Shown here piece by piece: positions 1-17,220 of a DNA stretch of 17,220 bases. The notes below the pieces were generated by a model, which saw nothing but the letters and a program-made list of their open reading frames with translations, was not told where the DNA came from and made no database searches. The stretch comes from Methanothermococcus sp. SCGC AD-155-E23 (GTDB lineage Archaea; AGJL01; Methanococci; Methanococcales; Methanococcaceae). The position numbers and the translations under genes were made by a program. The stretch's first letter is position 1, and every line of letters begins with the position of its first letter. Where the stretch lies: contig JAHEQA010000014.1 of NCBI GenBank assembly GCA_019561615.1, positions 1 through 17,220 of the forward strand, read 5' to 3'.

Positions 1-141
1 CTGTCTATAAGGGATCTTGAGGGAGAAAGGATAAGGCTGAAAAGTAAATTAGACAGGATAAAAAAAGAGATAAAGTCCCTGGATAAACAGAAAAGGCAGT
101 TATTCAAAGAGGGGATAGGTGCCGATACCCTGACAAAGAAG
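1..141 (+). pseudogene. N-terminal fragment (5'-partial) of a coiled-coil, ESCRT-III-like protein paralogous to 15739..16335, fused in frame to the ino1 fragment
   Basis: Frame 1 is open from base 1: LSIRDLEGERIRLKSKLDRIKKEIKSLDKQKRQLFKEGIGADTLTKK. The first 38 aa align without gaps to [38 protein letters not shown] (16284-16171, minus) with 9/38 identities and a matching hydrophobic heptad pattern. It does not resemble the Rossmann-fold segment expected here in Ino1. Confidence 0.65.
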
Positions 142-861
142 GAGTTGATAAAGGCTATAGAGAAGGACGAGAGAGAGAGGTTAACTGCAACACAGGTATA
201 CACCTACGCCGCCTCACTTTACGCCCAGGATGTAGGAGGAGCTGCATTTATAAATGCCATTCCAACCCTCATAGCTAATGACAGGGCATTCCTTGAACTT
301 GCAGAGGAGAGTAACCTAGTTATCTTTGGAGACGATGGTGCTACTGGTGCAACACCTTTAACTGCAGATATACTGGCCCATCTTGCCCAGAGGAACAGGT
401 ACGTTAGAAGTATAGTCCAGTTTAACATAGGTGGAAATACAGACTTCCTGGCGTTGACTCATAAGGAGAGAAATAGAAGTAAGGAGTATACAAAATCTAG
501 TGTTGTAAAGGATATCCTAGGTTACGAAGTTCCCCACTACATAAGACCAACAGGTTACCTTGAACCCCTTGGAGATAGGAAGTTTATATCCATGCATATT
601 GAGTATATCAGTTTTAACGGAGCCTTAGATGAACTTATCATAAATGGTAGGATAAACGACAGTCCTGCACTAGCTGGACTCCTTGTGGATCTAGTGAGAC
701 TAGGTAAGATAGCTGTTGATAGAGGAGAATGGGGAACAGTGTATGAGGTTAACGCCTTCTATATGAAGAACCCAGGACCAGTGGAGAAGGGTAACATACC
801 TAGAATTATCGCCTACGAGAAGATGCGTCTCTGGGCAGGGCTTAAAACCAAGTGGTGGTAA
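142..861 (+). pseudogene. ino1: myo-inositol-1-phosphate synthase, C-terminal ~240 aa only (N-terminal NAD-binding part replaced)
   Basis: Motifs FINAIPT, GDDGATGAT, QFNIGGNTDF, SKEYTKS, LGDRKF, INDSPALAG and FYMKNP match the archaeal (Thermococcales-like) IPS. The TTG at 145 is an internal codon of a longer open frame with no GxGxxG start. Product identity is confident; the truncation is inferred. Confidence 0.85.
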
Positions 862-5757: not shown

Positions 5758-6957
5758 TTACACCTCCTTCACCTTCTCCCTCTTAACCATTCTAAACTTC
5801 CTACCCCCACATTCACAGGTTAAATCCTCAATAACCACGCTCTTACCATCCACCCTGTAAATTTTACCACACTTTAAACATCTGTAGTACCTTATCGTAG
5901 GTCTTACCTCCCCTGTGTATAACTTGTCTAGATCTATCTCCTCCTTCTTAAATTTTTTTAAATCCTTACCTATCAACCTTGCCAGGAAGGTGGTGTTTCC
6001 TATTATCTCGGAACCCTCGTAGATGTTGAACCCTGGTATAAGTTCGTATATGGCAAAGTTCATGGTGTTTACAATCCTTTGGACCTCTAGATACTCCTCC
6101 ACAGGCTTATGGGAGAAGGCAAGATAGAGCACCCCTCTCCCTCCCTCTCCCAAACCTTCAACACCTCTAGAGAGGAAGAGCTTTAAACCATCTAGGGTAT
6201 AAGGGGGATCTGTAAATACAGTATCAAATTTTCCCCAGTATTTCCTATCTAACTCCTCCCTGAAGTCATGTTTAACTGTTTCGATATTTAGCCCCTCCCT
6301 CCTAGAAACCTCATCTATAAGTTTTAAAAGTCTCTCGTCTATGTCCATCACTACAACCTCCTCTGGAAACCCTGTCATTGCCGTAGGTAGGGAAGTTAAG
6401 TCGTCATCCCCAATAAACAGTACCCTCTTCCCCTCTAGATCACCCCTGTCAGCCATAAGGGCACCCCTGTATACTGCAGTCTCTGGGGTGGCATGGGACT
6501 GATCAATCCTTGTATTTACAGTGGGTCTAAGTCTTGCATACTCCCTATGTTTTTTAAGTATCTCCCTGAATCTCTCATCTAGGACAATCCCCCTTCCCCC
6601 ACAGGTTGGACACTTTAGATCTCTTTTCATCCTAAATCCTAGATTGTTCTCTACTAGTTTCCTCCCGTACTCTGTATACGTGGCCCCCCTCTCATCCCTT
6701 TTTAGTATCCTATGTCTCTCCAGGATACTCCTTACCTTACTTACAACAGGTAGTGGTAACTTGGTGTATTGTCCTATTCTCTTTGTAGAGATAGGTTCAT
6801 TCCTGTAGATACATCTAAGTATACCCTCTATGGCCTCAACACCCTCAGATACCTTTACCCTCTCTGCTACCCTTCTTAGAAAGGTCTTAAACCTCTCCCT
6901 CTCTGAGAGGTCCAGGTGACTCTCCACCCTATTTCCCATCTTCCCTATTATCTTCAT
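5758..6957 (-). CDS. BpsA-family (DUF43) aminopropyltransferase/methyltransferase-like paralogue with C-terminal zinc ribbon
   Basis: Motifs DQSHATPET, RGDLEGK, FIGDDDLTS, DIDERL and FDTVFTDPPY; internal CPTC; C-terminal CLKC...CEC. Confidence 0.85.
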   Translation of the reverse strand: MKIIGKMGNRVESHLDLSERERFKTFLRRVAERVKVSEGVEAIEGILRCIYRNEPISTKRIGQYTKLPLPVVSKVRSILERHRILKRDERGATYTEYGRKLVENNLGFRMKRDLKCPTCGGRGIVLDERFREILKKHREYARLRPTVNTRIDQSHATPETAVYRGALMADRGDLEGKRVLFIGDDDLTSLPTAMTGFPEEVVVMDIDERLLKLIDEVSRREGLNIETVKHDFREELDRKYWGKFDTVFTDPPYTLDGLKLFLSRGVEGLGEGGRGVLYLAFSHKPVEEYLEVQRIVNTMNFAIYELIPGFNIYEGSEIIGNTTFLARLIGKDLKKFKKEEIDLDKLYTGEVRPTIRYYRCLKCGKIYRVDGKSVVIEDLTCECGGRKFRMVKREKVKEV

Positions 6958-8499: not shown

Positions 8500-8922
8500 A
8501 TGGGATCCTATATAGGGTACTTCTTTATCCTACTTGGGCTCTTTATTATACTTCTTGAATCTATTTTACCTGGTCTCTACTTCCCAGCAGTGGGGATAGC
8601 CCTAACTATCTACGGTATAATGTTACTCTTTGCACCCTCCCTGGCACTACCCCTTGCCCTCCTTGCAGGGATAATTACAGTGGTTATACTACAGAGTATG
8701 GTTTACAAGGTGAAGGAGGATATAAAGATAGGACCTGAGAAGTTTATAGGAAGGGTTATAGTCTTACCTGTGGACCTAGATGAAAATGGACAGGCCCTTA
8801 TCACCATAGATAACGAGAAGTGGCATATTAAAAGTAGAGAGCCTTTAAAAAAAGGAGATCTTGTTAAGATCGTTGGGATTGAAGGGGTATTTCTCCTTGT
8901 AGAGAAGGTTGAAGACGCCTAA
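8500..8922 (+). CDS. short NfeD family membrane protein (C-terminal OB-fold)
   Basis: Hydrophobic N-terminus with [10 protein letters not shown], then IGRV...[12 protein letters not shown]...[17 protein letters not shown]. Start placed at ATG 8500 (GGTGA RBS). Confidence 0.88.
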
Positions 8923-10205
8923 TTTTCCTTCTTCTTCCACACCAGCCAAACTGTCAAGGCCACCCTAAGATTTGTTAAAACTGCCAGTAGGACAAAGAGT
9001 GCTTTTATCTGTCCTATTAAACAGAAGAGCATAGTTAAAAATATCCTCTCATCCCTCTTTCCAATAAGGTACCTCATCTCAGGAATGTCCTCGTATATAC
9101 TCCTCCCATATACAGCCCTGTAGCACTCTGTTGAGTAACTTACCATAACAGAACCAAAGATGGCAGCTCCCACTACAGCCCACCAGAGGGGCTCTTTAAT
9201 GGTAACGTAGGCCAAGGTAAGGAGGAATGTAAAGTCCACGTATCTATCTAGGATGGAATCCACATACCCCCCAAATCTACTGGTCCTCATACTGGCACGT
9301 GCAATCTCCCCATCAACCCCGTCAAGTATGGAACTTATCTGATACATAATCCCTGCCAGTGGGATACTGACAAAATTTAGTAGTGCTGAAAAGATACCAA
9401 GTAGGAAGGTTATCACAGTTAGCTGATTTGGAGATATACGATCAACGAGGAGGGCACTTATTCTTGTAGAGATCTTCCTATTGAGATACCTGGAGATGAA
9501 GCCATCTCCAACTCCCTTTACAGAGGTTTTTACAATAAGATCCCTGGCTTTCTTAATGTCCTCTGGTACATCTACATCTGTCCAGAAAAGTCCATCTACA
9601 AAGGTTACCCTAAGTTTAGCCCTTTTAACAACGTCACTTAACTCTATAACCTCCTTCTCCGAGAGGATCTCTTCTGCAATAGAGAATATCTCTGGTGTAA
9701 GTACAAAGAACCCAGTATCTACCCCGTGGAACTCCTTGAGATGCTTTCCAATATCCTCCACATGAGTATCCCTAACTTTAACCTTTGTCGCCTCCTCTAT
9801 ATCCACGTACCTTGGATCCCTATCCACTATAAGACCTTCCCCTTTCACAGCCTCCTGGAGAAATTCCCTTCCATAGATATGGTCACTCATGAAAAGTAGG
9901 AATCTATCTCTAACTTTATCTCTAGCTAGATAGAGGGAGTAGCCGTTACCTCTCTCAGGATGCTCATTTATTACTATCTGGGCCTTGAAGTTGTTCCTCT
10001 CCAAAAATTCCCTGAATCTCTCCTTGTACTTTTTATTTGTAATAATTATAAACTCCTTAACCCCTAGATCCTGGAGTATCCTCATACTCCTGTAGAGTAT
10101 CTCCCTCCCTGCAACTTTTAGAAGGCCCTTGGGTGTTTCCTCAGTTAATGTACCTAGCCTCGTTCCAAGACCTGCAGCGAGAATTACAGCCCTCTCTGGG
10201 ACCAT
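8919..10205 (-). CDS. bifunctional inositol-1-phosphate cytidylyltransferase / di-myo-inositol-phosphate-phosphate synthase (IPCT/DIPPS)
   Basis: N-terminal [10 protein letters not shown]...PKGL nucleotidyltransferase; C-terminal CDP-alcohol phosphotransferase signature DGVDGEIAR...GGYVDSILD; [13 protein letters not shown]. Start placed at ATG 10205 (GGTGA RBS). Confidence 0.93.
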
Positions 10206-10229
10206 TGAAATCACCAAAAAATAAAAGGT

Positions 10230-11279
10230 TTATGTGGTTGAGGCCTCTTCGTCGTTGTAGATGTCCTCCTCCCTTATCTCCTCCTCATAACCCCTTGAAC
10301 CCTCCAGGGTCTGTATCCTGAACATGTAACTCTTGTACCAGTTGTAGGTTGGTTTAACCTTTATAGGGATAAGTCTCCAGGCCCTGGTCTCCTCCTCGTA
10401 ACCCCAGTTCACATACTCGTTAAAGTTCCTCACTATGTCAGTTATTACAACCTGGAACTCGTTCAAAAGTAATTTTTGAATATCCCTCCACTTGTTTAAA
10501 GAGCTCTCCCTCCTTGTTATTCCAAAGTAGCCTGCACAACCTGGTCCCTTTAAGGTGGCTATCCCCCTGCCTACAAAGGCTCTAATGGCATCTACAGTCT
10601 CTGGAGGATCTGTAATGAAGGTGTCAAACTTTCTAAGTGCATACTCAGGTAGAGGTTTCCTTAGATCGAAGGTGAATATCTCTATGTTGTCGTAGCCAAT
10701 CTCTTCTGCAGTTTTCTCTATGAACTCTGTTAACCTATGGTCAATATCCAGGACAGCTATCCTCTTTGGCAACCCAGAGAGCATAAGGGCTATACTTGTT
10801 AAGTCGTCATCTCCAAGGACAAAAACCTCCCTGTTCTCCAGGTCACCCCTTGTATGCATGAAGATAACCCTTGCCACAGTGGTCTCTGGAGTTACATAGG
10901 CCTGATCAAACTCGTGTTTTGGTTCAGGTCTATTTTTGACAATCTCTTTAAACCTCTCAAGGAGGTCTTTAAAGGTTTCTATATCTACAGTTTTTCCCTT
11001 ACAGTAGGGGCAGGTGTAATCCTCCCTTCTACCTATTCCATACCTCTCGGCGAACCTCTTCCCCTCCTCTGTTAAAAATACCCCATCCCTGAACTGGATG
11101 TATCCAAGGTCTCTAAGTACCTCTAGTATTGCAACAACTAGGGGTAGAGGCTCCTCACTTAGATCTACGATCCTCCATATATCGCTACTGCCCTGAACTG
11201 CGCCTATGACGTTCTCTATACTTCTCTCGTAGACTGGGATATCTGTCTTCTCCCTAACCTTTGCTAAAACATCCTTCAC
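10230..11279 (-). CDS. bpsA: N4-bis(aminopropyl)spermidine synthase (branched-chain polyamine synthase)
   Basis: Motifs IPVYERSIEN, FDQAYVTPETTVAR, GDDDLTS, TDPPET, RNFNEYVNWGY, WYKSYMFRI and C-terminal EASTT, close to Thermococcus BpsA as recalled; GTG start with GGAGGTG RBS. Confidence 0.94.
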   Translation of the reverse strand: MKDVLAKVREKTDIPVYERSIENVIGAVQGSSDIWRIVDLSEEPLPLVVAILEVLRDLGYIQFRDGVFLTEEGKRFAERYGIGRREDYTCPYCKGKTVDIETFKDLLERFKEIVKNRPEPKHEFDQAYVTPETTVARVIFMHTRGDLENREVFVLGDDDLTSIALMLSGLPKRIAVLDIDHRLTEFIEKTAEEIGYDNIEIFTFDLRKPLPEYALRKFDTFITDPPETVDAIRAFVGRGIATLKGPGCAGYFGITRRESSLNKWRDIQKLLLNEFQVVITDIVRNFNEYVNWGYEEETRAWRLIPIKVKPTYNWYKSYMFRIQTLEGSRGYEEEIREEDIYNDEEASTT

Positions 11280-11348
11280 CTTAGCACCTCCTGGAACTCT
11301 AAGGGATAAAATTTTCCATCATTAAAATTTAAACTTAACTCTAATAAT

Positions 11349-11355
11349 AAAAAAA
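11349..11355 (-). terminator. T7 tract immediately after the PP2C stop, putative terminator of the ESCRT-like/kinase operon
   Basis: Minus strand reads TAA TTTTTTT ATTATT. Confidence 0.45.
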
Positions 11356-12108
11356 TTAAGAAGTCTCCCTGTATACCACAATACTAACGTTATCCTCTGT
11401 CTTCTCCAGGGCAGTATCTAACAGTTTTTCAGCAATCTCCTTTGGACTCTCGTAATTACTAACCACCTTTAGAATTTCCTCCCTCTCCACGTAGTCGTGA
11501 AGTCCATCGGAACTTAGAAGAATTATATCCCCCTCCTTTAGATCCCAGATGTAGGTATCTATCTGGGGTTCATCTAATCCCAAGGCCGAAGTAAGGATAT
11601 GCTTCATGGGATGGAAGATAGCCTCCTCCTCTGAGATCAGATCCATATCTATTAAGCTCTGGACAAAGGAGTGATCCTTAGTTCTCTGGACTATCCTTCC
11701 CCTCCTAATTAAGTATCCTCTACTGTCACCACAGTTTGCCACAACACATATATTTCCCTTTACCAGTGCACTTACCAGTGTTGTTCCCATCCCCTCCCTC
11801 TCCCCTATAGCGTTCTCTTTTATTCTCCTATGGGCCAACTTATAGGCCTCCTCTAGTAGATTCGCCACCTCCTGGATAGAGAGGTCCTCCCTGTACCTCT
11901 CTGTTACAAATTCCTCCAGGGTATCCACTGCCATCTTAGATGCAACCTCCCCTGCGTTATGTCCTCCTATACCATCTGCAACTGCCAGGAGGTAGGCATC
12001 CTTGATCTTCTTAACAAGTATATAGTCCTCGTTGTGGGATCTCCCACCTCTGTGGGATATGCCGTAGGCCTTATCCACCTCTAGGACCATATAATCACGG
12101 TTTTCCAT
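11356..12108 (-). CDS. PP2C/PPM family Ser/Thr protein phosphatase (Stp1-like)
   Basis: Motifs RSHNED, VADGIGGH, GEVAS, MGTT, NCGDSRGY, TKDHS, LSSDGL and DNVS. Alternative start at ATG 12090. Confidence 0.95.
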   Translation of the reverse strand: MENRDYMVLEVDKAYGISHRGGRSHNEDYILVKKIKDAYLLAVADGIGGHNAGEVASKMAVDTLEEFVTERYREDLSIQEVANLLEEAYKLAHRRIKENAIGEREGMGTTLVSALVKGNICVVANCGDSRGYLIRRGRIVQRTKDHSFVQSLIDMDLISEEEAIFHPMKHILTSALGLDEPQIDTYIWDLKEGDIILLSSDGLHDYVEREEILKVVSNYESPKEIAEKLLDTALEKTEDNVSIVVYRETS

Positions 12109-12120
12109 AGTCTCCTCTCC

Positions 12121-14526
12121 TTAATAGTATTCTCTTCTTATCCTGTTTAGCAACACCTCAAGTCTCTCAAGGGTATCTCTTCCAACAGGTATCCCCTCTT
12201 TAATAAGGTGTTCAATGTAGGATATAGCCCTTTCAAGCTCCTCCCTGTTCTCCTCAGATTTTACATACTCCCTTAACAACTCCAAGGTATCCAGGAGTCC
12301 TACCTTATCGTTTATCCTTGCACAGTTAAGTGCCAGTTTTACCGAGGCATCGATAAGCTCCCTAGTTAGCCTCTCAATCTCTCTCTTATCTCTTGAGACT
12401 TTTAATCTTTCAGTGGTTTTATTCAGTGTATCCTTAAACTTCTCCTTCTCCCTCACTATCTCCTCTATGGAGTTTAAGGCCTCCAGGAATTCATCGATAG
12501 ATTGATATCTATCCTCCTTCCTCTTTGCAAGGAGTTTCTCAAAGACGCCATCAAATATGGAGAGTTTTGGATCTATCTTCGAAGGTGGAATAGGTTTTAT
12601 ATTTGGGTTTGTTATTTTCAGAGAGATCTGGGCTGGAGTTATTCCCTCGTAGGGTAGCCTTCCAGTGAGTAACTCGTAGAATAGAACACCTAGTTGATAG
12701 ATATCTGTCCTCTTATCTGTCTTCCCATACTCCACTTCGTCTATCTGTTCAGGTGCCGAGTAGAGAAGTGTCAGTCCCTTAGTTACAGTTGTAGTGGTGG
12801 ACCTCATCCCTACCTTGGCCAGTCCCCAATCTGTTATCTTAGGTGTGAGATTCTCAGTTAACAGGATATTAGATGGCTTAATGTCCCTGTGGATTATATC
12901 CCTGTCATGGGCATGTTTAAGCCCCTCTCCAATCTCCTTCATCAATCTAATAGCCTCCTTGGGATCTACAGGTTTCCTATACCTCTCTAAATCCCTTATC
13001 ACCTCTCCATCTATCCTATACCCTTCAACATACTCCATCTCTATGTGGGGAATAGGTTCTATAAAGGCGTCGTAGAGTTTAACTATGTTTGGATGGTTGA
13101 GATTTCTCCATACCTCAATCTCCTTCATCAGATACTTTTTGGCACTCTCCTCCAACTTAGGCACCTTTACAGCGAGAGGTAGTGTACCACCTCTCCTCTT
13201 AACCTTGAACACCTTTCCAAAACCACCCTCTCCAAGTTTTTCAAGTGGGATATACTTTTCCAGAAGTTCCCCTGGAAAATCGGGAAGTGTACTTGCCTCT
13301 AACATCCCTTTAGAGGTAATCCCCCTTATAATTCTCTCTACCTCTCTCTTCAATCTCTTTATATCCCTGAAATCCCAGATAAATAGCTGTACATCGCTAA
13401 ACTTTCTATTACCCTCTAAGTCAAACCCTCGGAAAAATACCCTGTTTTCCCTCTTATAAGGCTCAAAGTGCATCTTCTGTACTCTCTCTTTTATCTCTTC
13501 AAAGTGGGGACTTTTTCTGGCCTCAATTAAGGAGAGGCCAAGGGTAGTGTATACCACTATCTTCCCCTCTCTATGTACAAGGATTGGCTTCCCATCTTTT
13601 GTAAACATCTCAAAGCCATCTAGATTCTCCAACTTTGAAAGTGTATCTATCTCCCTCTTTATCAACTCGTTTATTCCCTTATCTTTAATCACCTCCCCTT
13701 CTTTTACCCTGCTTAAAACCTTCTTCACATACTCCTTTAACTCAAGGTATTTCTTTGTCAGTATTTCCTCCAGTTTATCTCCAGGTGCTTCTTTGGGAGA
13801 GTCCGAAAGAACGTCTGTCTCCTCTGAAACCTTTACCTTATCCCCTACATCTTTAGGGATTTCAGCCTCTCCTGTCCAGGATGTGGATTTTTCAATCCCC
13901 TGTAAATAGGTCCTAGCGGAGAAGTGACCAAATACTACCGCGGAGTAGTAGAAAAATGCCCCAATTAACCAGATAGCTAGAAGATTAAGTAGTGGTATAA
14001 TCCCCACTATTATTGTCACCATTAGAAAAATCAGAAAGAGAATAAAGTAGAGGGTGTAAAAAACTGCTATGGTAAACCATGTTTTTTTAAGTACCCTCCA
14101 TATAGTGGAGAAATGGAAGATTGAAGTTATCTCCCTGGTATAGACATAGTGTGAAAGTGTCACCTGGGTCAGTACCATGGATATTAGAAAGGTAACAATT
14201 AAGACAATACCTTCAACTACATCATTACCATCCATATTGAAGATAACAAAGACTATAACAAACAACAATAAGAACAGCATATAAACAAAGATAAAGTAGA
14301 GGGAAAGGATAACAAATATCTTTAACCCCTTAATAAACTGGCTAAATATTCTAAACTCAGGTAATCCCCAGTCTCCCTGATATATGGACTCCATAACATC
14401 TGCCATATACCCTACTAACGAGATATTAACTAGAGGTATAATACCAATTATCCCTCCCTTAAGAAGCTTTTTTGCCCAATCCCTCTCCCTGAAAATACAG
14501 GTGAAAGACTCTAATATCACATCCAT
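12121..14526 (-). CDS. membrane-anchored Hanks-type Ser/Thr protein kinase with N-terminal DUF4013-like membrane domain and C-terminal helical domain
   Basis: Kinase motifs GEGGFG, AVK, HPNIVKL, HRDIKPSN, DWG, YSAPE and TDIYQLG at about 13255-12475. N-terminal ~205 aa is polytopic with W.KKLL.GG...IPLVN...GY...LPEF...FIKGLK, typical of DUF4013. Confidence 0.92.
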   Translation of the reverse strand: MDVILESFTCIFRERDWAKKLLKGGIIGIIPLVNISLVGYMADVMESIYQGDWGLPEFRIFSQFIKGLKIFVILSLYFIFVYMLFLLLFVIVFVIFNMDGNDVVEGIVLIVTFLISMVLTQVTLSHYVYTREITSIFHFSTIWRVLKKTWFTIAVFYTLYFILFLIFLMVTIIVGIIPLLNLLAIWLIGAFFYYSAVVFGHFSARTYLQGIEKSTSWTGEAEIPKDVGDKVKVSEETDVLSDSPKEAPGDKLEEILTKKYLELKEYVKKVLSRVKEGEVIKDKGINELIKREIDTLSKLENLDGFEMFTKDGKPILVHREGKIVVYTTLGLSLIEARKSPHFEEIKERVQKMHFEPYKRENRVFFRGFDLEGNRKFSDVQLFIWDFRDIKRLKREVERIIRGITSKGMLEASTLPDFPGELLEKYIPLEKLGEGGFGKVFKVKRRGGTLPLAVKVPKLEESAKKYLMKEIEVWRNLNHPNIVKLYDAFIEPIPHIEMEYVEGYRIDGEVIRDLERYRKPVDPKEAIRLMKEIGEGLKHAHDRDIIHRDIKPSNILLTENLTPKITDWGLAKVGMRSTTTTVTKGLTLLYSAPEQIDEVEYGKTDKRTDIYQLGVLFYELLTGRLPYEGITPAQISLKITNPNIKPIPPSKIDPKLSIFDGVFEKLLAKRKEDRYQSIDEFLEALNSIEEIVREKEKFKDTLNKTTERLKVSRDKREIERLTRELIDASVKLALNCARINDKVGLLDTLELLREYVKSEENREELERAISYIEHLIKEGIPVGRDTLERLEVLLNRIRREYY

Positions 14527-14550
14527 GTTTTTACCCTAAGAATTTTTAAA

Positions 14551-15720
14551 TTATCCTCCAAACTCCTCCCACCATCTCTCATACCTCTCAATATCTCTCT
14601 TAGTTAGGGGACTCTTTATCTTTTTAAACCCCTCCTCGAAATCCTCCTCAGTTAGAGGTCTTACCTTTAACTTTCTCTTTCTCAACTCCCTGTAGGGAAG
14701 GTTGGCCATCTTGTAGAGATCCCTATTTACATCCCTTATCATACTCCATATAGCCCCCTGACATAGGTTCTTTATATCCCTCCCTGAGTAGTACCTCTCT
14801 ACACACCTCTCGGCAATCTCATCTAGGTTAACATTCAACTTAAGACCCCTAGTATTTATCTTGATAATCTCCTTTGCAGCCTCTCTATCTGGTAGTGGGA
14901 TATATATCCTCCTTGGAAACCTGGAGAGTACAGCCTCATCTAGATCCCAGGGTGTGTTGGTTGCCGCCAGGGTAAGTACTAACCTGTCACTTCCCTTATC
15001 CTGGAAACCATCTAACTCAGTTAACAAGGTGGAGAGCATCCTCCTGGAAGCCTCACTGATTCCCTCCCCCCTCTTCATAGTTAAGGCATCTATCTCGTCA
15101 ATAAACACTATACTTGGATGAAGTTCCCTTGCAACTTCGTAGAGGGCACTTACAATCTTGGAGGACTCTCCAAAGTACTTACTTGTCACAGAGGAGGCCT
15201 TTACGTTAAAGAATGTAGCATCTAAACTTCCAGCACATGCAGAGGCTAGAAGTGTCTTTCCAGTACCTGGGGGTCCAAAGAGTAGTATACCTCTCCAGGG
15301 CTGAATAGAGGTAGGTCTCTGAAGTGCAGATATCACTATGGTTTCCATCATAAGTTGTTTTACCTCCTTCAACCCCCCTATGTCCTCCCACTTTATCTTA
15401 GATCTCTGTATCAGGTTGTTCCTTACAAAACTTTTAAACTTGTCAACCTCCTCCTGACTCTCTTTAGGTTTGGATGTAATAACCTTGGAGGGGTTGAGTA
15501 CCTCCCCTATGTTATCTGCCACTAACTCCCACTTTTCAGCCATCTCCAGATACATCCTCTCGTTGTATCTGTTGTACTTGGCCATCTCCCTCAAGAGCTT
15601 GGCACATTCCAACGCCTTCCTCCTTGCCACCATTTCTTTTTTCTCCCTCTTTGCCCTTTCGTACTCTTTTTTAGCCTTTTTAAACTGGTTCAGGAGGACT
15701 CCAGATAGGTCAACATCCAA
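14551..15720 (-). CDS. Vps4/CdvC-like (meiotic clade) single-domain AAA ATPase with helical, MIT-like N-terminus
   Basis: Motifs WEDIGGL, PWRGILLFGPPGTGKT, SKYFGES, FIDEID, SEASRR, ATNTPWDLD, RFPRRIYIPLPD and C-terminal helix YERWWEEFGG. TTG start after a G-rich RBS. Confidence 0.9.
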   Translation of the reverse strand: MDVDLSGVLLNQFKKAKKEYERAKREKKEMVARRKALECAKLLREMAKYNRYNERMYLEMAEKWELVADNIGEVLNPSKVITSKPKESQEEVDKFKSFVRNNLIQRSKIKWEDIGGLKEVKQLMMETIVISALQRPTSIQPWRGILLFGPPGTGKTLLASACAGSLDATFFNVKASSVTSKYFGESSKIVSALYEVARELHPSIVFIDEIDALTMKRGEGISEASRRMLSTLLTELDGFQDKGSDRLVLTLAATNTPWDLDEAVLSRFPRRIYIPLPDREAAKEIIKINTRGLKLNVNLDEIAERCVERYYSGRDIKNLCQGAIWSMIRDVNRDLYKMANLPYRELRKRKLKVRPLTEEDFEEGFKKIKSPLTKRDIERYERWWEEFGG

Positions 15721-15738
15721 TAGTATCCCCCCTGTATC

Positions 15739-16335
15739 TTACTCTCTCAACTTCTTTTCCTCCCTGGATATCAGTGTCTTGGCATCTTCAGCCTCTAACT
15801 CCCCCTCTTTAACAGCCTGGATAGTACTTAGTATATCCTCGATATCCCTGTCATACTCCTCTGATGCACCACTTAACATATCCTCTGTTATACCAAGGGC
15901 CATGTTCAAGGTCTCGATTATATTCTCACTGTCTATCTTCATCTCCACTAAGTACCTCTCCAACTCCTGAGGTGACATGGATCTCAAGGTGTTCCAGAGA
16001 GGGGTGGATTTTAAAATCTCCTCGTTCTCCTTTATTATCAGAAGGTTGTCTACAAACCTCATCTGTTTATTAAGGAGGGTGTGGGAGTGCTGGAGTTGTT
16101 TCTTCCTCTGACTGAGGGTTTTTATCTTCGTGGCTATTGTTAACTCCTCACTTTTACTCTCTACCTCTTTAGCCCTCTCAAATAACTTAGTAATACTTTT
16201 ATCTATCTCCCTCATCTCCTCCTCTAACTTTCTAATCTTAATGTCCAGCTTTACCCTGGACTCCCTTATCTTCTCTATAGGCATGTCTAGGGGATTTTTA
16301 CTCCTAAAGAACAGGCTTTTTAATTTACTGACCAT
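15739..16335 (-). CDS. coiled-coil protein, putative ESCRT-III/Snf7/CdvB-like
   Basis: 198 aa from ATG 16335 ([10 protein letters not shown]...). All-helical character with a long hairpin, basic N-terminal half and acidic C-terminal part; lies 18 nt upstream of the Vps4-like ATPase. The CDS is confident; the family call is inferred. Confidence 0.7.
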
Positions 16336-17220
16336 CCTCTCCAAGTAGATGTATCCCTGCAATATCCCCCTCACCTCCCTTTATGGACAACAAACCCCCT
16401 ATGGAACCTACGTTGATAACCTTTCCATGTATGTTACCCTCCCTAAGTATAATATCTACACCTATACAGTGGCTACCTACTATACTAAGTCCAAACTTTA
16501 TATCTCCAAAGAGGTGCACCTCAACAGGTTCATCCTCTAGTATCTCCTTCTCCTCCCCTATAACTACATACCCGTCACTGTAGGTCAGGGATGTGATGGC
16601 ACCACTACCCTTGAGAACAGGGTATACAGTATATCCCTCACTACCTCTCACTACAGACACTGGTAGGTACTCCACCCTACCCTTTGCAGAGAGGTATCTA
16701 AGTGGGAAGTGCCCCCTTATACTCCTCCCCTCTCCTCCAAAGAGTACGTTAAACACTGTTAAACAGGAAGTGGGATATCCTGGAAGGCCAAGGATTAACT
16801 TAGGTGTATTATCCTCCCCAGGTACACTACCTATTATCGTGGGCTTCCCAGGTTTTATCTTCAAACCATGGATATGGATCTTCCCTCCAAGTCTCTCTAT
16901 TACCTGGGCAGTTAGATCACCTCTTCCCGCAGAGGTACCACCACTTAGGATCACTATATCGTTGTTATCCTTCAACGCCCTCTTAACAGCCCTTAGGATA
17001 TCCTCCTCCCTATCCCTCACAATGCCGTAGAATTTAAAATCCCAGCCCCTCTCCCTTATAGAGGCAGCTAGGGTGTAGGTGTTGACGTCGTATATCTTGT
17101 AGCCTTCCAGGGGTTTCCCAGGATCTATCAACTCATCTCCCGTGGATATCAGTGCAACCCTCAACCTCCTCTTAACCTTTACCCTCCTTCTCCCTATGGC
17201 TGCCAGGGCCCCTATATCCC
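16325..17220 (-). pseudogene. moeA: molybdopterin molybdotransferase MoeA-PBP fusion, 5'-partial at the window edge and truncated early in the PBP domain
   Basis: Frame is open to the window end (DIGALAAIG...[45 protein letters not shown]). The PBP domain start IVGSHC...NVGSIGGL...DIAGIHLL is followed by a stop after only about 50 aa. Confidence 0.85.

What the first reader, a model, noticed from the sequence alone, without database searches (positions are those of the whole stretch)
11356..16335. Candidate phospho-regulated ESCRT-III/Vps4-like membrane-remodelling operon in a methanogen
Seen: four co-oriented genes with 12-24 nt gaps encode a 198-aa coiled-coil protein, a single-domain AAA ATPase, a membrane-anchored Ser/Thr kinase and a PP2C phosphatase, ending in a T-tract. 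A fragment of a second coiled-coil paralogue lies at 1-141. Established: the ATPase motifs (PWRGILLFGPPGTGKT, SEASRR, TNxPWxLD, RRIYIPLPD, terminal YExWxxEFG helix) mark the Vps4/katanin/spastin clade, Vps4/CdvC disassembles ESCRT-III polymers, and Methanococcales are FtsZ-type organisms. Inference: this is an ESCRT-like filament system not used for division (membrane repair, vesicle formation, or cell-contact or antiviral response), switched by its own membrane sensor kinase and phosphatase. Euryarchaeal Vps4/ESCRT-III-like loci have been noted in comparative genomics, so the components may not be wholly new; I know of no experimental characterisation of such a kinase-coupled module.
Basis: partly seen in the sequence, partly recalled or inferred. 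Interest (0 to 1): 0.88.

Follow-up and report, generated by a model that had tools for sequence, protein, structure and literature searches.

The report
Known kinase-linked archaeal ESCRT-like operon
This is a real four-gene cluster in a methanogen that belongs to an already described, but never experimentally tested, archaeal ESCRT-III/Vps4-like system coupled to a membrane protein kinase and a phosphatase.

Summary
The four minus-strand genes exist as described, with gaps of 18, 24 and 12 nt and a T-tract after the last stop. They encode a 198-aa helical protein, a 389-aa single-domain AAA ATPase with a Vps4_C tail, an 801-aa multi-pass membrane Hanks-type kinase, and a 250-aa PP2C.

The locus matches the "Main clade" euryarchaeal ESCRT system of Makarova et al. 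2024 (mBio, PMC10936438). That paper already reports membrane Ser/Thr kinases and phosphatases in these loci. The finding is therefore a new member of a known, experimentally uncharacterised kind.

Two corrections. Both ends of the contig are chimeric. Bases 16326-17220 copy a moeA gene that is intact elsewhere in the genome. Bases 1-141 are an inverted copy of the paralogue gene on contig C23. In relatives the unit is longer: a Cas2-like 177-aa gene, a 571-aa adaptor, ESCRT-III-like paralogue A, paralogue B (this gene), then the ATPase, kinase(s) and PP2C.

ESCRT-III and MIT assignments rest on weak evidence: a CdvB profile hit at E 0.0012, predicted folds and gene context. Pfam Snf7 and MIT did not match.

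Linkage is conserved. In 40 Methanococcales genomes, 13 have the helical protein, the same 13 have the ATPase next to it, and 10 have PP2C within 8 kb. Function is inferred.

The parts
15739..16335 (-). ESCRT-III-like helical protein, paralogue B ('CC', 198 aa). It has an N-terminal amphipathic helix, a long alpha1/alpha2 hairpin and short C-terminal helices. This lineage's form lacks the C-terminal FxxKLxxL tail seen in orthologues.
   Evidence: ORF. N-terminus conserved in homologues. AF2 pLDDT 82.9. The family profile's only PDB hit at E<=0.01 is CdvB 9s9j_A (E 0.0012). Homologous to the paralogue A family by hhalign, E 6e-40.
14551..15720 (-). Vps4-like single-domain AAA ATPase (389 aa). 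It has a predicted N-terminal three-helix bundle, a disordered linker, an AAA domain with intact Walker A/B, pore loop KYFGES and Arg fingers, and a Vps4_C C-terminal helix.
12121..14526 (-). Membrane Hanks-type Ser/Thr kinase (801 aa). Domains: DUF4013 multi-pass membrane module (about 5 hydrophobic segments within residues 20-200), an unassigned linker 215-425, the kinase domain 427-651 with catalytic motifs, and a conserved C-terminal helical domain at about 690-801.
   Evidence: Pfam Pkinase 1e-47 and DUF4013 1e-12. Hydropathy. Motifs read. C-terminal part conserved in locus kinases of other orders.
11356..12108 (-). PP2C-type Ser/Thr phosphatase (250 aa), Stp1-like.
   Evidence: Pfam PP2C 69.2 bits (cut-off 20.3). 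NCBIfam Stp1_PP2C 219.5 bits, just under its cut-off of 230.
11343..11355 (-). T-rich tract directly after the PP2C stop; likely archaeal oligo-T terminator.
   Evidence: Sequence. That oligo-T tracts terminate archaeal transcription is general knowledge and was not tested here.
1..141 (+). Inverted chimeric copy of residues about 19-66 of ESCRT-III-like paralogue A ('CC2'). The real gene is on contig C23.
   Evidence: 100% identity over 141 nt to C23:645-505. Translations.
16326..17220 (-). Not part of the system. This is a chimeric copy of an internal piece of the moeA-PBP gene that is intact on contig C4. It is joined to the first gene at a 10-nt microhomology (16326-16335).
   Evidence: 99.9% identity over 895 nt to C4:30153-31047. 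Intact 630-aa frame on C4. Synteny with relatives breaks at the ATG. No listed contig of 4 runs bridges the join, and loose ends there continue as native moeA.

Best explanation
The four genes are the downstream part of a 'Main-clade' euryarchaeal ESCRT-like system. Two paralogous ESCRT-III-like proteins take part: paralogue A on contig C23 and paralogue B in the window. They are proposed to bind the cytoplasmic face of the membrane through their N-terminal amphipathic helices and to co-polymerise through their alpha1/alpha2 hairpins. The adjacent Vps4-like hexameric AAA ATPase is proposed to engage their tails with its N-terminal three-helix domain, pull subunits through its pore, and so turn the polymer over. 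A 571-aa winged-helix adaptor and a 177-aa Cas2-like protein are encoded upstream in relatives and would act as targeting or nucleating factors. The multi-pass membrane kinase and the PP2C would form a reversible phospho-switch, or mark cargo, that couples an envelope or membrane signal to assembly. Shown here: gene content, domain identities, intact catalytic motifs, conserved gene order and co-occurrence. Inferred: polymerisation, membrane binding, ATPase-driven disassembly, the kinase's substrates and the physiological role. The role is most likely membrane remodelling or protein sorting, not core cytokinesis.
For: Domains and motifs.

Paralogue B family. It has 150 homologues, concentrated in Methanococcales and Thermococcales; two are named 'SNF7 family protein' by their sources. 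The HMM of 127 family members has exactly one PDB hit at E<=0.01, CdvB 9s9j_A (E 0.0012), aligned hairpin to hairpin. The paralogue A profile has the same top hit in the same register, at E 0.081. The AF2 model (pLDDT 82.9) shows alpha0, a 36+43-residue hairpin and 4-5 short helices. Of the first 23 ranked Foldseek hits, 6 are CdvB2 filament chains and 3 are CHMP3 entries, though none is significant.

ATPase. Vps4_C scores 28.4 bits against a cut-off of 21.3. Its top structural matches are katanin, spastin, FIGL1 and Vps4, with E 2.6e-22 to 1e-17. A three-helix N-terminal domain is predicted at pLDDT 83-91 (block means, residues 11-70). Over residues 88-251 it is 62% identical (206 bits) to an ATPase of another Methanococcales genome (G008), against 45% (132 bits) or less to its own Cdc48 and PAN. 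That G008 ATPase has a sub-threshold Pfam MIT match and sits behind two sub-threshold Snf7 genes and an adaptor homologue.

Linkage among 40 Methanococcales genomes. Paralogue B is in 13. The ATPase orthologue is in the same 13 and always adjacent. A kinase is on the same contig within 10 kb in 11 of the 13; in the other 2 it is split by contig ends. PP2C lies within 8 kb in 10 of 13, with 2 unresolved and 1 unlinked.

Linkage among 26 loci from five orders. Paralogue A is in 26 of 26, the adaptor in 23, the ATPase in 21, a kinase in 22 and PP2C in 5.

Literature. The same architecture, with membrane STK and STP, is described in PMC10936438.
Against: Pfam Snf7 does not match the window protein and matches only 2 of 127 family members at E<=0.01. 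That model also stays under its cut-off in the Sulfolobus control, so this is weak evidence against.

Foldseek gave no hit with E<=0.001 for the helical protein.

Pfam MIT matched 0 of 15 N-terminal domains at E<=1. Their profile found no MIT structure in the PDB. hhalign to the MIT-bearing G008 N-terminus gave probability 0.8%.

The CdvC equivalog model scores the genome's own Cdc48 D2 higher (232.6 bits) than this ATPase (209.9 bits). Both are far below the cut-off of 650.

The window's paralogue B lacks the C-terminal FxxKLxxL tail present in orthologues.

No Ser or Thr is invariant across the paralogue A alignment, so the polymer subunits need not be the kinase's conserved substrate.

A 2021 review reports, as unpublished work, that disrupting the Vps4 homologues of T. 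kodakarensis did not change vesicle production (PMC10117752, passage).
Confidence: 0.65

Rival explanations
1. Phosphoprotein-sorting machine, as Makarova et al. 2024 proposed. The kinase does not switch the polymer. It tags membrane or envelope cargo proteins, which the adaptors recognise and the ESCRT-III/Vps4 core sorts or extrudes.
For: [quoted passage not shown] No conserved Ser/Thr is found across paralogue A. Kinase sensor modules vary while the core is conserved.
Against: No phospho-binding domain such as FHA was found in the four window proteins or in the C23 adaptor by Pfam. No cargo gene is evident in the window.
Confidence: 0.2
2. A signalling, stress or antiviral module that does not remodel membranes. 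The AAA ATPase would be a generic unfoldase, and the helical proteins its coiled-coil adaptors or substrates, triggered by a receptor kinase.
For: ESCRT-III and MIT assignments are statistically weak here. The distribution is patchy, as for accessory genes. One Thermococcaceae locus carries a TIR-domain gene between two locus kinases. PADLOC models for kinase-based (mad6, PD-T4-6) and AAA-based (IetA) defence proteins hit the kinase and ATPase domains.
Against: The PADLOC hits cover only the generic catalytic domains. Paralogues A and B have no PADLOC hit, and the adaptor only a marginal LmuB hit (E 0.0005). The only PDB family found by both paralogue profiles is CdvB. The ATPase carries the Vps4_C helix, and its best structural matches are the Vps4/katanin/spastin group. 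The TIR gene was seen in the single Thermococcaceae locus whose extra genes were scanned (L016); a same-genus locus (L041) had none.
Confidence: 0.1
3. An accessory cytokinesis or abscission factor that works together with FtsZ.
For: ESCRT-III/Vps4 drives division in Sulfolobales and abscission in eukaryotes (general knowledge; reviews seen only as listings). The genome has FtsZ.
Against: The system is absent from 27 of 40 Methanococcales genomes, including 0 of 7 in one genus whose genomes are 97-99% complete. It therefore cannot be a core division factor of the order.
Confidence: 0.05

Closest known systems
'Main clade' euryarchaeal ESCRT system (Makarova et al. 2024, mBio, PMC10936438; earlier Makarova et al. 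2010, cited there and not read)
   Same: The taxa match: Methanococcales, Thermococcales, Methanomicrobiales and others. The gene set matches: a Vps4-family ATPase, ESCRT-III-like genes, a helical/coiled-coil/globular/winged-helix adaptor (the 571-aa protein on C23), a small Cas2-like protein (the 177-aa gene in relatives), plus a membrane-associated Ser/Thr kinase and a phosphatase.
   Different: The paper describes the kinases as having one N-terminal TM segment, Ig-like repeats and a C-terminal PCI-like helical domain. Here the N-terminal module is a multi-pass DUF4013 domain. A same-genus genome has six PEGA repeats instead. Pfam DUF3568, said to mark arCOG08177, was not found in this genome or in 5 near-complete relatives. 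arCOG assignments and the paper's supplementary tables could not be checked.
Crenarchaeal Cdv system (CdvB/ESCRT-III paralogues plus CdvC/Vps4)
   Same: Several ESCRT-III-like paralogues are encoded next to a single-domain AAA ATPase with an N-terminal helical domain and a C-terminal helix. CdvB is the top PDB match of both paralogue profiles.
   Different: No CdvA is known for this clade. The ATPase is far below the CdvC equivalog cut-off (209.9 against 650 bits). The organism divides with FtsZ. Kinase and PP2C are linked, which is not a feature of Cdv loci to my knowledge (recalled).
Eukaryotic ESCRT-III/Vps4 and the wider Vps4/katanin/spastin/fidgetin AAA group
   Same: The Vps4_C helix is present, and the best structural matches are katanin, spastin, FIGL1 and Vps4. 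The pore-loop and Arg-finger motifs are intact.
   Different: MIT is not recognisable by sequence. No clear Vps4 beta-domain appears in the model. On sequence and structure the ATPase is as close to katanin as to Vps4.
Bacterial Stk1/Stp1 (PknB-type kinase with a cognate PP2C) pairs
   Same: An adjacent Hanks-type membrane kinase and PP2C form a presumed reversible switch. The best NCBIfam hits are PknB_PASTA_kin and Stp1_PP2C.
   Different: Both scores are below the equivalog cut-offs. There are no PASTA domains. The sensor is DUF4013, and the pair is embedded in an ESCRT-like locus.

Membership tests
Main-clade euryarchaeal ESCRT system (Makarova 2024) | Vps4-family ATPase encoded next to ESCRT-III-like gene(s) | tested here: met
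   The ATPase starts 18 nt after paralogue B. The two are adjacent in 13 of 13 Methanococcales genomes that have either gene.
Main-clade euryarchaeal ESCRT system (Makarova 2024) | arCOG09748-type protein (N-helical, coiled coil, globular, C-terminal winged helix) | tested here: inconclusive
   A 571-aa homologue lies on C23 directly upstream of paralogue A. It is directly upstream of the pair in 23 of 26 related loci. The sequence shows a helical and coiled-coil N-terminal half.
Main-clade euryarchaeal ESCRT system (Makarova 2024) | arCOG08177-type protein (Cas2-like N-domain plus DUF3568/TBP domain) | tested here: inconclusive
   Pfam DUF3568 gave 0 matches in this genome (86% complete) and 0 of 5 relatives. 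A conserved 177-aa gene upstream of the adaptor was found in 24 of 28 loci searched, but not in this genome. In this genome the adaptor is preceded by a dispersed repeat at the contig end.
Main-clade euryarchaeal ESCRT system (Makarova 2024) | Membrane Ser/Thr kinase and phosphatase in the locus (present in many members, not all) | tested here: met
ESCRT-III superfamily (Snf7/CHMP/CdvB) | Sequence match to family models | tested here: inconclusive
   Pfam Snf7 gives no hit for the window protein and hits 2 of 127 family members at E<=0.01. It is 0 of 40 over cut-off in Methanococcales genomes and also under cut-off in the S. acidocaldarius control. The family profile against the PDB finds CdvB 9s9j_A at E 0.0012 as the only hit at E<=0.01.
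ESCRT-III superfamily (Snf7/CHMP/CdvB) | alpha1/alpha2 hairpin followed by short helices alpha3-alpha5(6) | tested here: inconclusive
   The AF2 model has this helix order at pLDDT 82.9. Foldseek finds no hit with E<=0.001. CdvB2 and CHMP3 chains are 9 of the first 23 ranks, at E 0.5-2.2.
ESCRT-III superfamily (Snf7/CHMP/CdvB) | C-terminal MIT-interacting motif | tested here: not met
   The window's 198-aa form ends before the acidic FxxKLxxL tail found in 208-216-aa orthologues. Paralogue A keeps an ELFKRLEKE-type tail. The MIM1 consensus used for comparison is recalled from memory.
ESCRT-III superfamily (Snf7/CHMP/CdvB) | Polymerises on and deforms membranes | not testable with these tools
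   Needs biochemistry or electron microscopy.
Vps4/CdvC ATPases | Single AAA domain with Walker A/B, aromatic pore loop and Arg fingers | tested here: met
   Pfam AAA scores 133.4 bits.
Vps4/CdvC ATPases | C-terminal helix (Vps4_C) of the Vps4/katanin/spastin group | tested here: met
   PF09336 scores 28.4 bits against a cut-off of 21.3, over residues 344-388. The C-terminal 119 aa align to the chain end of katanin (65.6 bits), FIGL1, CdvC 4lcb (29.8 bits) and spastin.
Vps4/CdvC ATPases | N-terminal MIT three-helix bundle | tested here: inconclusive
   By sequence the feature is not met: Pfam MIT hits 0 of 15, the PDB profile finds none, and hhalign to an MIT-bearing relative gives 0.8%. The AF2 model shows three helices, 6-25, 29-49 and 54-69, at pLDDT 83-91 (block means, residues 11-70). 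The nearest named Atlas clusters are MIT, but at 0.78 and 0.76, which is lead level only.
Vps4/CdvC ATPases | Equivalog-level match to CdvC, or placement in the Vps4 clade | tested here: not met
   NF041006 scores 209.9-210.8 bits against a cut-off of 650, lower than the genome's own Cdc48 D2 at 232.6. A reference phylogeny could not be built here. The published tree places the Methanococcales ATPases of such loci in Vps4 'Main' (PMC10936438; supplements not seen).
Hanks-type (eukaryotic-like) Ser/Thr kinases | Gly-rich loop, catalytic Lys, HRD loop, DFG-type Asp, APE | tested here: met
   Pkinase E 1e-47. The motif names are general knowledge.
PP2C (PPM) phosphatases | PP2C fold with metal-binding Asp motifs | tested here: met
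   PF00481 scores 69.2 bits against a cut-off of 20.3. Stp1_PP2C equivalog scores 219.5 against a cut-off of 230, just under.

The most novel reading that the evidence does not exclude
The locus could be an envelope-damage or virus-triggered membrane repair or shedding device. The locus kinases carry rapidly swapped sensor modules: a multi-pass DUF4013 domain here, six PEGA repeats in a same-genus genome, and beta-propellers in Thermococcaceae. These modules would detect an insult at the cell surface or within the bilayer. Phosphorylation of the adaptor, the Ser/Thr/Lys-rich ATPase linker or the ESCRT-III-like subunits would then trigger local polymerisation of the two paralogues. In this lineage only paralogue A keeps the ATPase-recruiting tail. 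The PP2C would reset the system. The patchy distribution and a TIR gene embedded in one Thermococcaceae locus would fit an accessory defence or repair role.
Probability: 0.15. Interest if true: 0.75.

Novelty: new member of a known kind. Interest (0 to 1): 0.35.

Why it matters
ESCRT-III/Vps4 is the only membrane-scission machinery shared by archaea and eukaryotes. What it does in FtsZ-dividing euryarchaea is unknown. As of the library dates, I found no experimental paper on this clade in four literature searches. The only data point is an unpublished negative result on vesicle production quoted in a review.

This locus adds nothing categorically new. It does document a compact form (ESCRT-III-like gene, ATPase, kinase, PP2C in about 5 kb) with tight kinase/PP2C linkage in Methanococcales. 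It also shows a kinase variant whose sensor is an intramembrane DUF4013 domain, and a paralogue that has lost its putative ATPase-binding tail. These are usable handles for biochemical reconstitution from thermophile proteins.

It is also a caution. Both contig ends are chimeric, so the apparent operon start and the "second paralogue fragment" are artefacts.

Tried and rejected
Complex prediction. I tested the ATPase N-terminal domain (alignment A5) against the C-terminal 48 residues of paralogue A (A6). The verdict was 'no answer' at score 0.01. It counts neither for nor against binding.

Bridging by profile comparison. hhalign of the paralogue family against the Snf7-like 189-aa protein of G008 gave probability 0.5%, so there is no bridge that way.

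Direct searches with the single protein. Paralogue B alone against the PDB gave only chance-level hits. Pfam on the kinase linker, the kinase C-terminal domain, the ATPase N-terminus, the adaptor and paralogue A found nothing meaningful.

ESM Atlas for paralogue B. The nearest clusters are unnamed. A cluster in which Snf7 is carried by 16% of members appears only at rank 24, so it is lead level only.

I repeated it with the narrower A2.

RNA evidence. No RNA holder was listed for the stretch, so nothing can be said about expression.

A reference phylogeny of the ATPase with Vps4, CdvC, katanin, Cdc48 and PAN could not be built, because no tool supplied eukaryotic or TACK reference sequences as usable records. 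I used HMM scores, PDB and Foldseek ranks and identity to an MIT-bearing relative instead.

I first guessed a wrong Pfam accession for DUF3568. It was corrected.

The idea that the moeA-like gene heads the operon was rejected on the evidence.

Full report
OBSERVATION

The window carries four co-oriented minus-strand ORFs:
- 16335..15739, 198 aa
- 15720..14551, 389 aa, TTG start
- 14526..12121, 801 aa
- 12108..11356, 250 aa

The gaps between them are 18, 24 and 12 nt. Purine-rich Shine-Dalgarno-like stretches precede the ATPase and PP2C starts, and a weaker one precedes the kinase. A T-rich tract at 11343-11355 follows the last stop. The starts of the first two genes agree with the conserved N-termini of homologues.

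The rest of the window encodes unrelated housekeeping and thermoadaptation genes: TatD, DUF749, DUF2096, NYN, SurE, a wHTH regulator, a Na/Ca exchanger, two BpsA-like polyamine synthases, a MobA-like transferase, an NTP-transferase/CDP-alcohol-phosphatidyltransferase fusion, and inositol-1-phosphate synthase.

ASSEMBLY CAVEATS

The window is contig C14 of a 1.04-Mb, 51-contig, 86%-complete genome. Both of its ends are chimeric.

Right end. Bases 16326-17220 are 99.9% identical over 895 nt to the inside of a moeA-PBP gene that is intact (630-aa frame) on contig C4. In the window this copy is cut off inside its PBP-like domain, exactly where the first gene begins. Similarity to the closest relative's locus starts at the ATG and not before it.

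I laid the public contigs of four runs from three studies on the region. This showed:
- In the two small runs, the contig on the paralogue B side ends at 16335 and at 16329.
- The moeA side there has a word depth of about 10^5 against 19.
- In all four runs, loose ends at 16326 continue with what reads as the native moeA frame.
- One metagenome contig continues beyond 16336 with a sequence resembling the paralogue A-B intergenic region of the relative.
- No listed contig bridges the join.

The join sits on a 10-nt stretch (16326-16335) shared by both sequences, so the ATG itself is probably genuine. The closest homologues begin ML-, not MV-.

Left end. Bases 1-141 are a 100% identical, inverted copy of C23:505-645, fused in frame to the inositol-1-phosphate synthase. 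The "second paralogue fragment" is therefore real sequence but an artefact of placement. The true paralogue A gene lies on C23 behind a 571-aa gene. Its 3' end there is disturbed by a 91-nt tandem duplication.

WHAT THE GENES ARE

(a) The 198-aa protein

Pfam, NCBIfam and a direct PDB search gave nothing. It has 150 homologues at E<=0.001 in the 90%-clustered collection. Those that carry names come from Methanococcales (65-82% identity) and Thermococcales (53-59%), and two are called "SNF7 family protein" by their source. In the 50%-clustered library it has 144 representatives.

A 127-member alignment gave an AF2 model with pLDDT 82.9 and pTM 0.74. The model has:
- a short N-terminal helix, residues 2-10;
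- a hairpin of two long helices, 20-55 and 61-103;
- several short helices;
- two C-terminal helices, 163-176 and 182-197.

The alignment's HMM has a single PDB hit at E<=0.01. It is CdvB (9s9j_A, E 0.0012), with profile positions 26-93 aligned to CdvB residues 23-93. The separate paralogue A profile has the same top hit in the same register at E 0.081. The two paralogue families are clearly homologous (hhalign E 6e-40).

Foldseek gave no significant hit (0 at E<=0.001). Even so, 6 CdvB2-filament chains and 3 CHMP3 entries are among the first 23 ranks. Pfam Snf7 matched only 2 of 127 members. That model also stays below its cut-off in all 40 Methanococcales genomes and in the Sulfolobus acidocaldarius control, so its silence says little.

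Orthologues of 208-216 aa end in an acidic stretch followed by FxxKLxxL(I/L)K. This resembles the MIM1 motif as I recall it. The window's form lacks this tail, as do its three closest relatives. Paralogue A keeps an acidic ELFKRLEKE-type tail.

(b) The ATPase

Pfam gives AAA (133 bits) and Vps4_C (28.4 bits, cut-off 21.3) at residues 344-388. NCBIfam scores do not discriminate: CDC48 216, CdvC 211, PAN 197, all far under their cut-offs. Within this genome the CdvC model scores the Cdc48 D2 domain higher (232.6) than this protein (209.9). It is therefore not a CdvC equivalog.

Against the PDB:
- The best single-domain sequence matches are katanin p60 (228 bits) and spastin (206 bits). The higher Cdc48/VAT scores are sums over two domains.
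- The last 119 residues match katanin best (65.6 bits), and reach the chain end in katanin, FIGL1, CdvC (29.8 bits) and spastin.
- The AF2 model (pLDDT 80.1) is closest to katanin (E 2.6e-22, TM 0.82 on the target), then spastin, FIGL1 and Vps4.

The N-terminal 75 residues are predicted as three helices (6-25, 29-49, 54-69; pLDDT 83-91 (block means, residues 11-70)), followed by a disordered linker. By sequence no MIT is detectable: Pfam 0 of 15 orthologues, no MIT chain in the PDB profile search, and hhalign 0.8% to an MIT-bearing relative. The nearest named Atlas clusters are MIT families, but only at lead-level scores of 0.78 and 0.76.

A useful bridge comes from another Methanococcales genome (G008). 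It carries, in the same order, an adaptor homologue, two genes with sub-threshold Snf7 matches (22.8 and 21.2 bits), and an ATPase with a sub-threshold MIT match (25.1 bits, E 1.9e-5). Over residues 88-251 the window ATPase is 62% identical (206 bits) to that protein. It is at most 45% identical (132 bits) to this genome's Cdc48 and PAN.

(c) The kinase

It has DUF4013 (E 1e-12) at residues 26-174, with about five hydrophobic segments between residues 20 and 200. The topology is not resolved. Residues 215-425 are unassigned. The Hanks kinase domain (E 1e-47) has the Gly-rich loop, catalytic Lys, HRD, DWG and APE motifs. A C-terminal helical region of about 110 aa is conserved in locus kinases of other orders.

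(d) The phosphatase

It is a PP2C with the metal-binding motifs. The Stp1 equivalog score is 219.5, just under the cut-off of 230.

CONSERVATION

Twenty-six loci were retrieved with the paralogue B alignment. They come from records labelled as Methanococcales, Thermococcales, Archaeoglobi and Methanomicrobiales, plus one probably mis-binned "Oscillospiraceae" MAG. Two pairs of these loci are near-duplicates. Counts:

| Gene | Loci with it (of 26) |
|---|---|
| Paralogue A | 26 |
| 571-aa adaptor | 23 |
| ATPase | 21 |
| At least one kinase | 22 |
| PP2C | 5 (four Methanococcales, one Thermococcus) |

Of the five loci without the ATPase, three end within 2 kb of paralogue B. The four loci without a kinase are all truncated.

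A 177-aa gene whose N-terminus looks Cas2-like to my eye precedes the adaptor in 24 of 28 loci searched. It was not found in this genome. Here the adaptor is preceded by a dispersed ~150-nt repeat at the contig end.

The closest relative has the order adaptor, paralogue A, paralogue B, ATPase, kinase, PP2C, BpsA. It is collinear with the window from paralogue B onward.

In a survey of all 40 Methanococcales-level genomes held, this one included:
- Paralogue B is in 13.
- The ATPase orthologue is in exactly the same 13 and always next to it: 12 within 170 nt, one 1.4 kb away.
- The kinase orthologue is on the same contig within 10 kb in 11. In the other two it is split across contig ends.
- PP2C is within 8 kb in 10, unresolved in 2 and unlinked in 1.
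- One genus has 0 of 7.

The kinase sensor part varies:
- fused DUF4013 in this genome, in G029 and in G034;
- DUF4013 apparently in a neighbouring frame in two other genomes;
- six PEGA repeats plus a separate beta-propeller gene in a same-genus complete genome;
- beta-propellers in a Thermococcaceae locus, which also holds a TIR-domain gene.

LITERATURE

Makarova et al. 2024 (PMC10936438; section 5 read in part, part 1 of 2, plus search passages) define a "Main" clade of euryarchaeal Vps4. It includes Thermococcales and Methanococcales. Its loci encode Vps4, ESCRT-III, arCOG09748 and arCOG08177, and in many genomes membrane-associated Ser/Thr kinases and phosphatases. The authors suggest sorting of phosphorylated proteins.

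The 2015 arCOG paper notes shared ESCRT-III-associated genes in Thermococci and class I methanogens (passages). A 2021 review still stated that euryarchaea lack ESCRT-III. It quoted unpublished work that disrupting the three Vps4 homologues of T. kodakarensis did not affect vesicle production (passages).

Searches for the arCOG numbers and for experimental work found only the 2024 paper and unrelated ESCRT studies. The supplements were closed, so I could not check whether these exact orthologues are listed.

MECHANISM AND RIVALS

The best-supported reading is a two-paralogue ESCRT-III-like polymer turned over by a Vps4-like ATPase. Adaptors would target it, and a membrane kinase/PP2C pair would couple it to a signal. 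Gene content, domains, catalytic motifs and linkage are shown. Polymerisation, membrane binding, tail recognition and substrates are inferred.

Three points argue for caution:
- The ESCRT-III and MIT statistics are weak.
- The window's paralogue B has lost its tail.
- There are no invariant Ser/Thr in paralogue A.

The patchy distribution and the presence of FtsZ argue against a core division role.

PADLOC gave only generic kinase and AAA domain hits, none for the helical proteins, and a marginal LmuB hit (E 0.0005) for the adaptor. A defence reading is therefore not supported, though not excluded.

VERDICT

This locus is a new member of a known, uncharacterised kind, with a DUF4013-fused kinase as a minor variant. 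Interest is moderate to low (0.35).

Noticed in passing
window 1-141 and 16326-17220; G000:C23:93-274: Both ends of contig C14 are chimeric copies of sequence found elsewhere in the genome. C23 has a 91-nt perfect tandem duplication inside the 3' end of the paralogue A gene. In two small public runs the moeA piece has a word depth of about 1e5 against 19 for the neighbouring gene, which is the pattern of strongly biased amplification. Other contig ends of this assembly may be unreliable too.
   Followed up: yes
G000:C23:2475-2623 (also C36, C47, C4, C45, C29, C17): A dispersed repeat of about 150 nt, 96-99% identical in at least seven places of the genome, lies directly upstream of the adaptor gene, where relatives have the 177-aa gene. 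It was not characterised; it could be a MITE-like element or a structured RNA.
   Followed up: no
L038/L040 (G008:C72): Another Methanococcales genome lacks paralogue B but has a second, more canonical-looking system in the same gene order: an adaptor homologue, two genes with sub-threshold Pfam Snf7 matches, and an ATPase with a sub-threshold Pfam MIT match.
   Followed up: partly
L016:10779-11489 and 15333-16568: A Thermococcaceae version of the locus contains a TIR-domain gene between two locus kinases, and a beta-propeller/PEGA protein after the ATPase. Its kinases carry beta-propeller N-terminal parts.
   Followed up: partly
L041 (G032:C1:79000-97000), 9917-13878: In a same-genus complete genome the locus kinase has six PEGA repeats instead of DUF4013, and a separate 417-aa beta-propeller gene sits between the ATPase and the kinase. 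The kinase sensor modules are swapped between close relatives.
   Followed up: partly
window 15739-15760 against orthologues P0005, P0008, P0012, P0013, P0021: The 198-aa form of paralogue B (window, P0003, P0004, L008) has lost about 10-15 C-terminal residues. In other Methanococcales these residues form an acidic FxxKLxxL tail.
   Followed up: partly
window 142-861, 5758-6957, 8919-10217, 10230-11279: Genes typical of hyperthermophile solute and polyamine metabolism flank the operon: inositol-1-phosphate synthase, an NTP-transferase/CDP-alcohol-phosphatidyltransferase fusion, and two BpsA-like branched-polyamine synthases. The PP2C-BpsA adjacency is conserved in the closest relative.
   Followed up: partly
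G000:C11:1446-2417 and C25:426-1397: Two FtsZ matches have identical scores and lengths on two contigs. This is probably redundant assembly of one gene and not a duplication.
   Followed up: no
L031 (record labelled Oscillospiraceae bacterium) and P0024 (labelled Candidatus Pacebacteria): Archaeal-type copies of the locus proteins sit in records labelled as bacteria. L031 matches the query proteins at nearly the same identities as the Methanomicrobiales loci, so mis-binning is likely.
   Followed up: no
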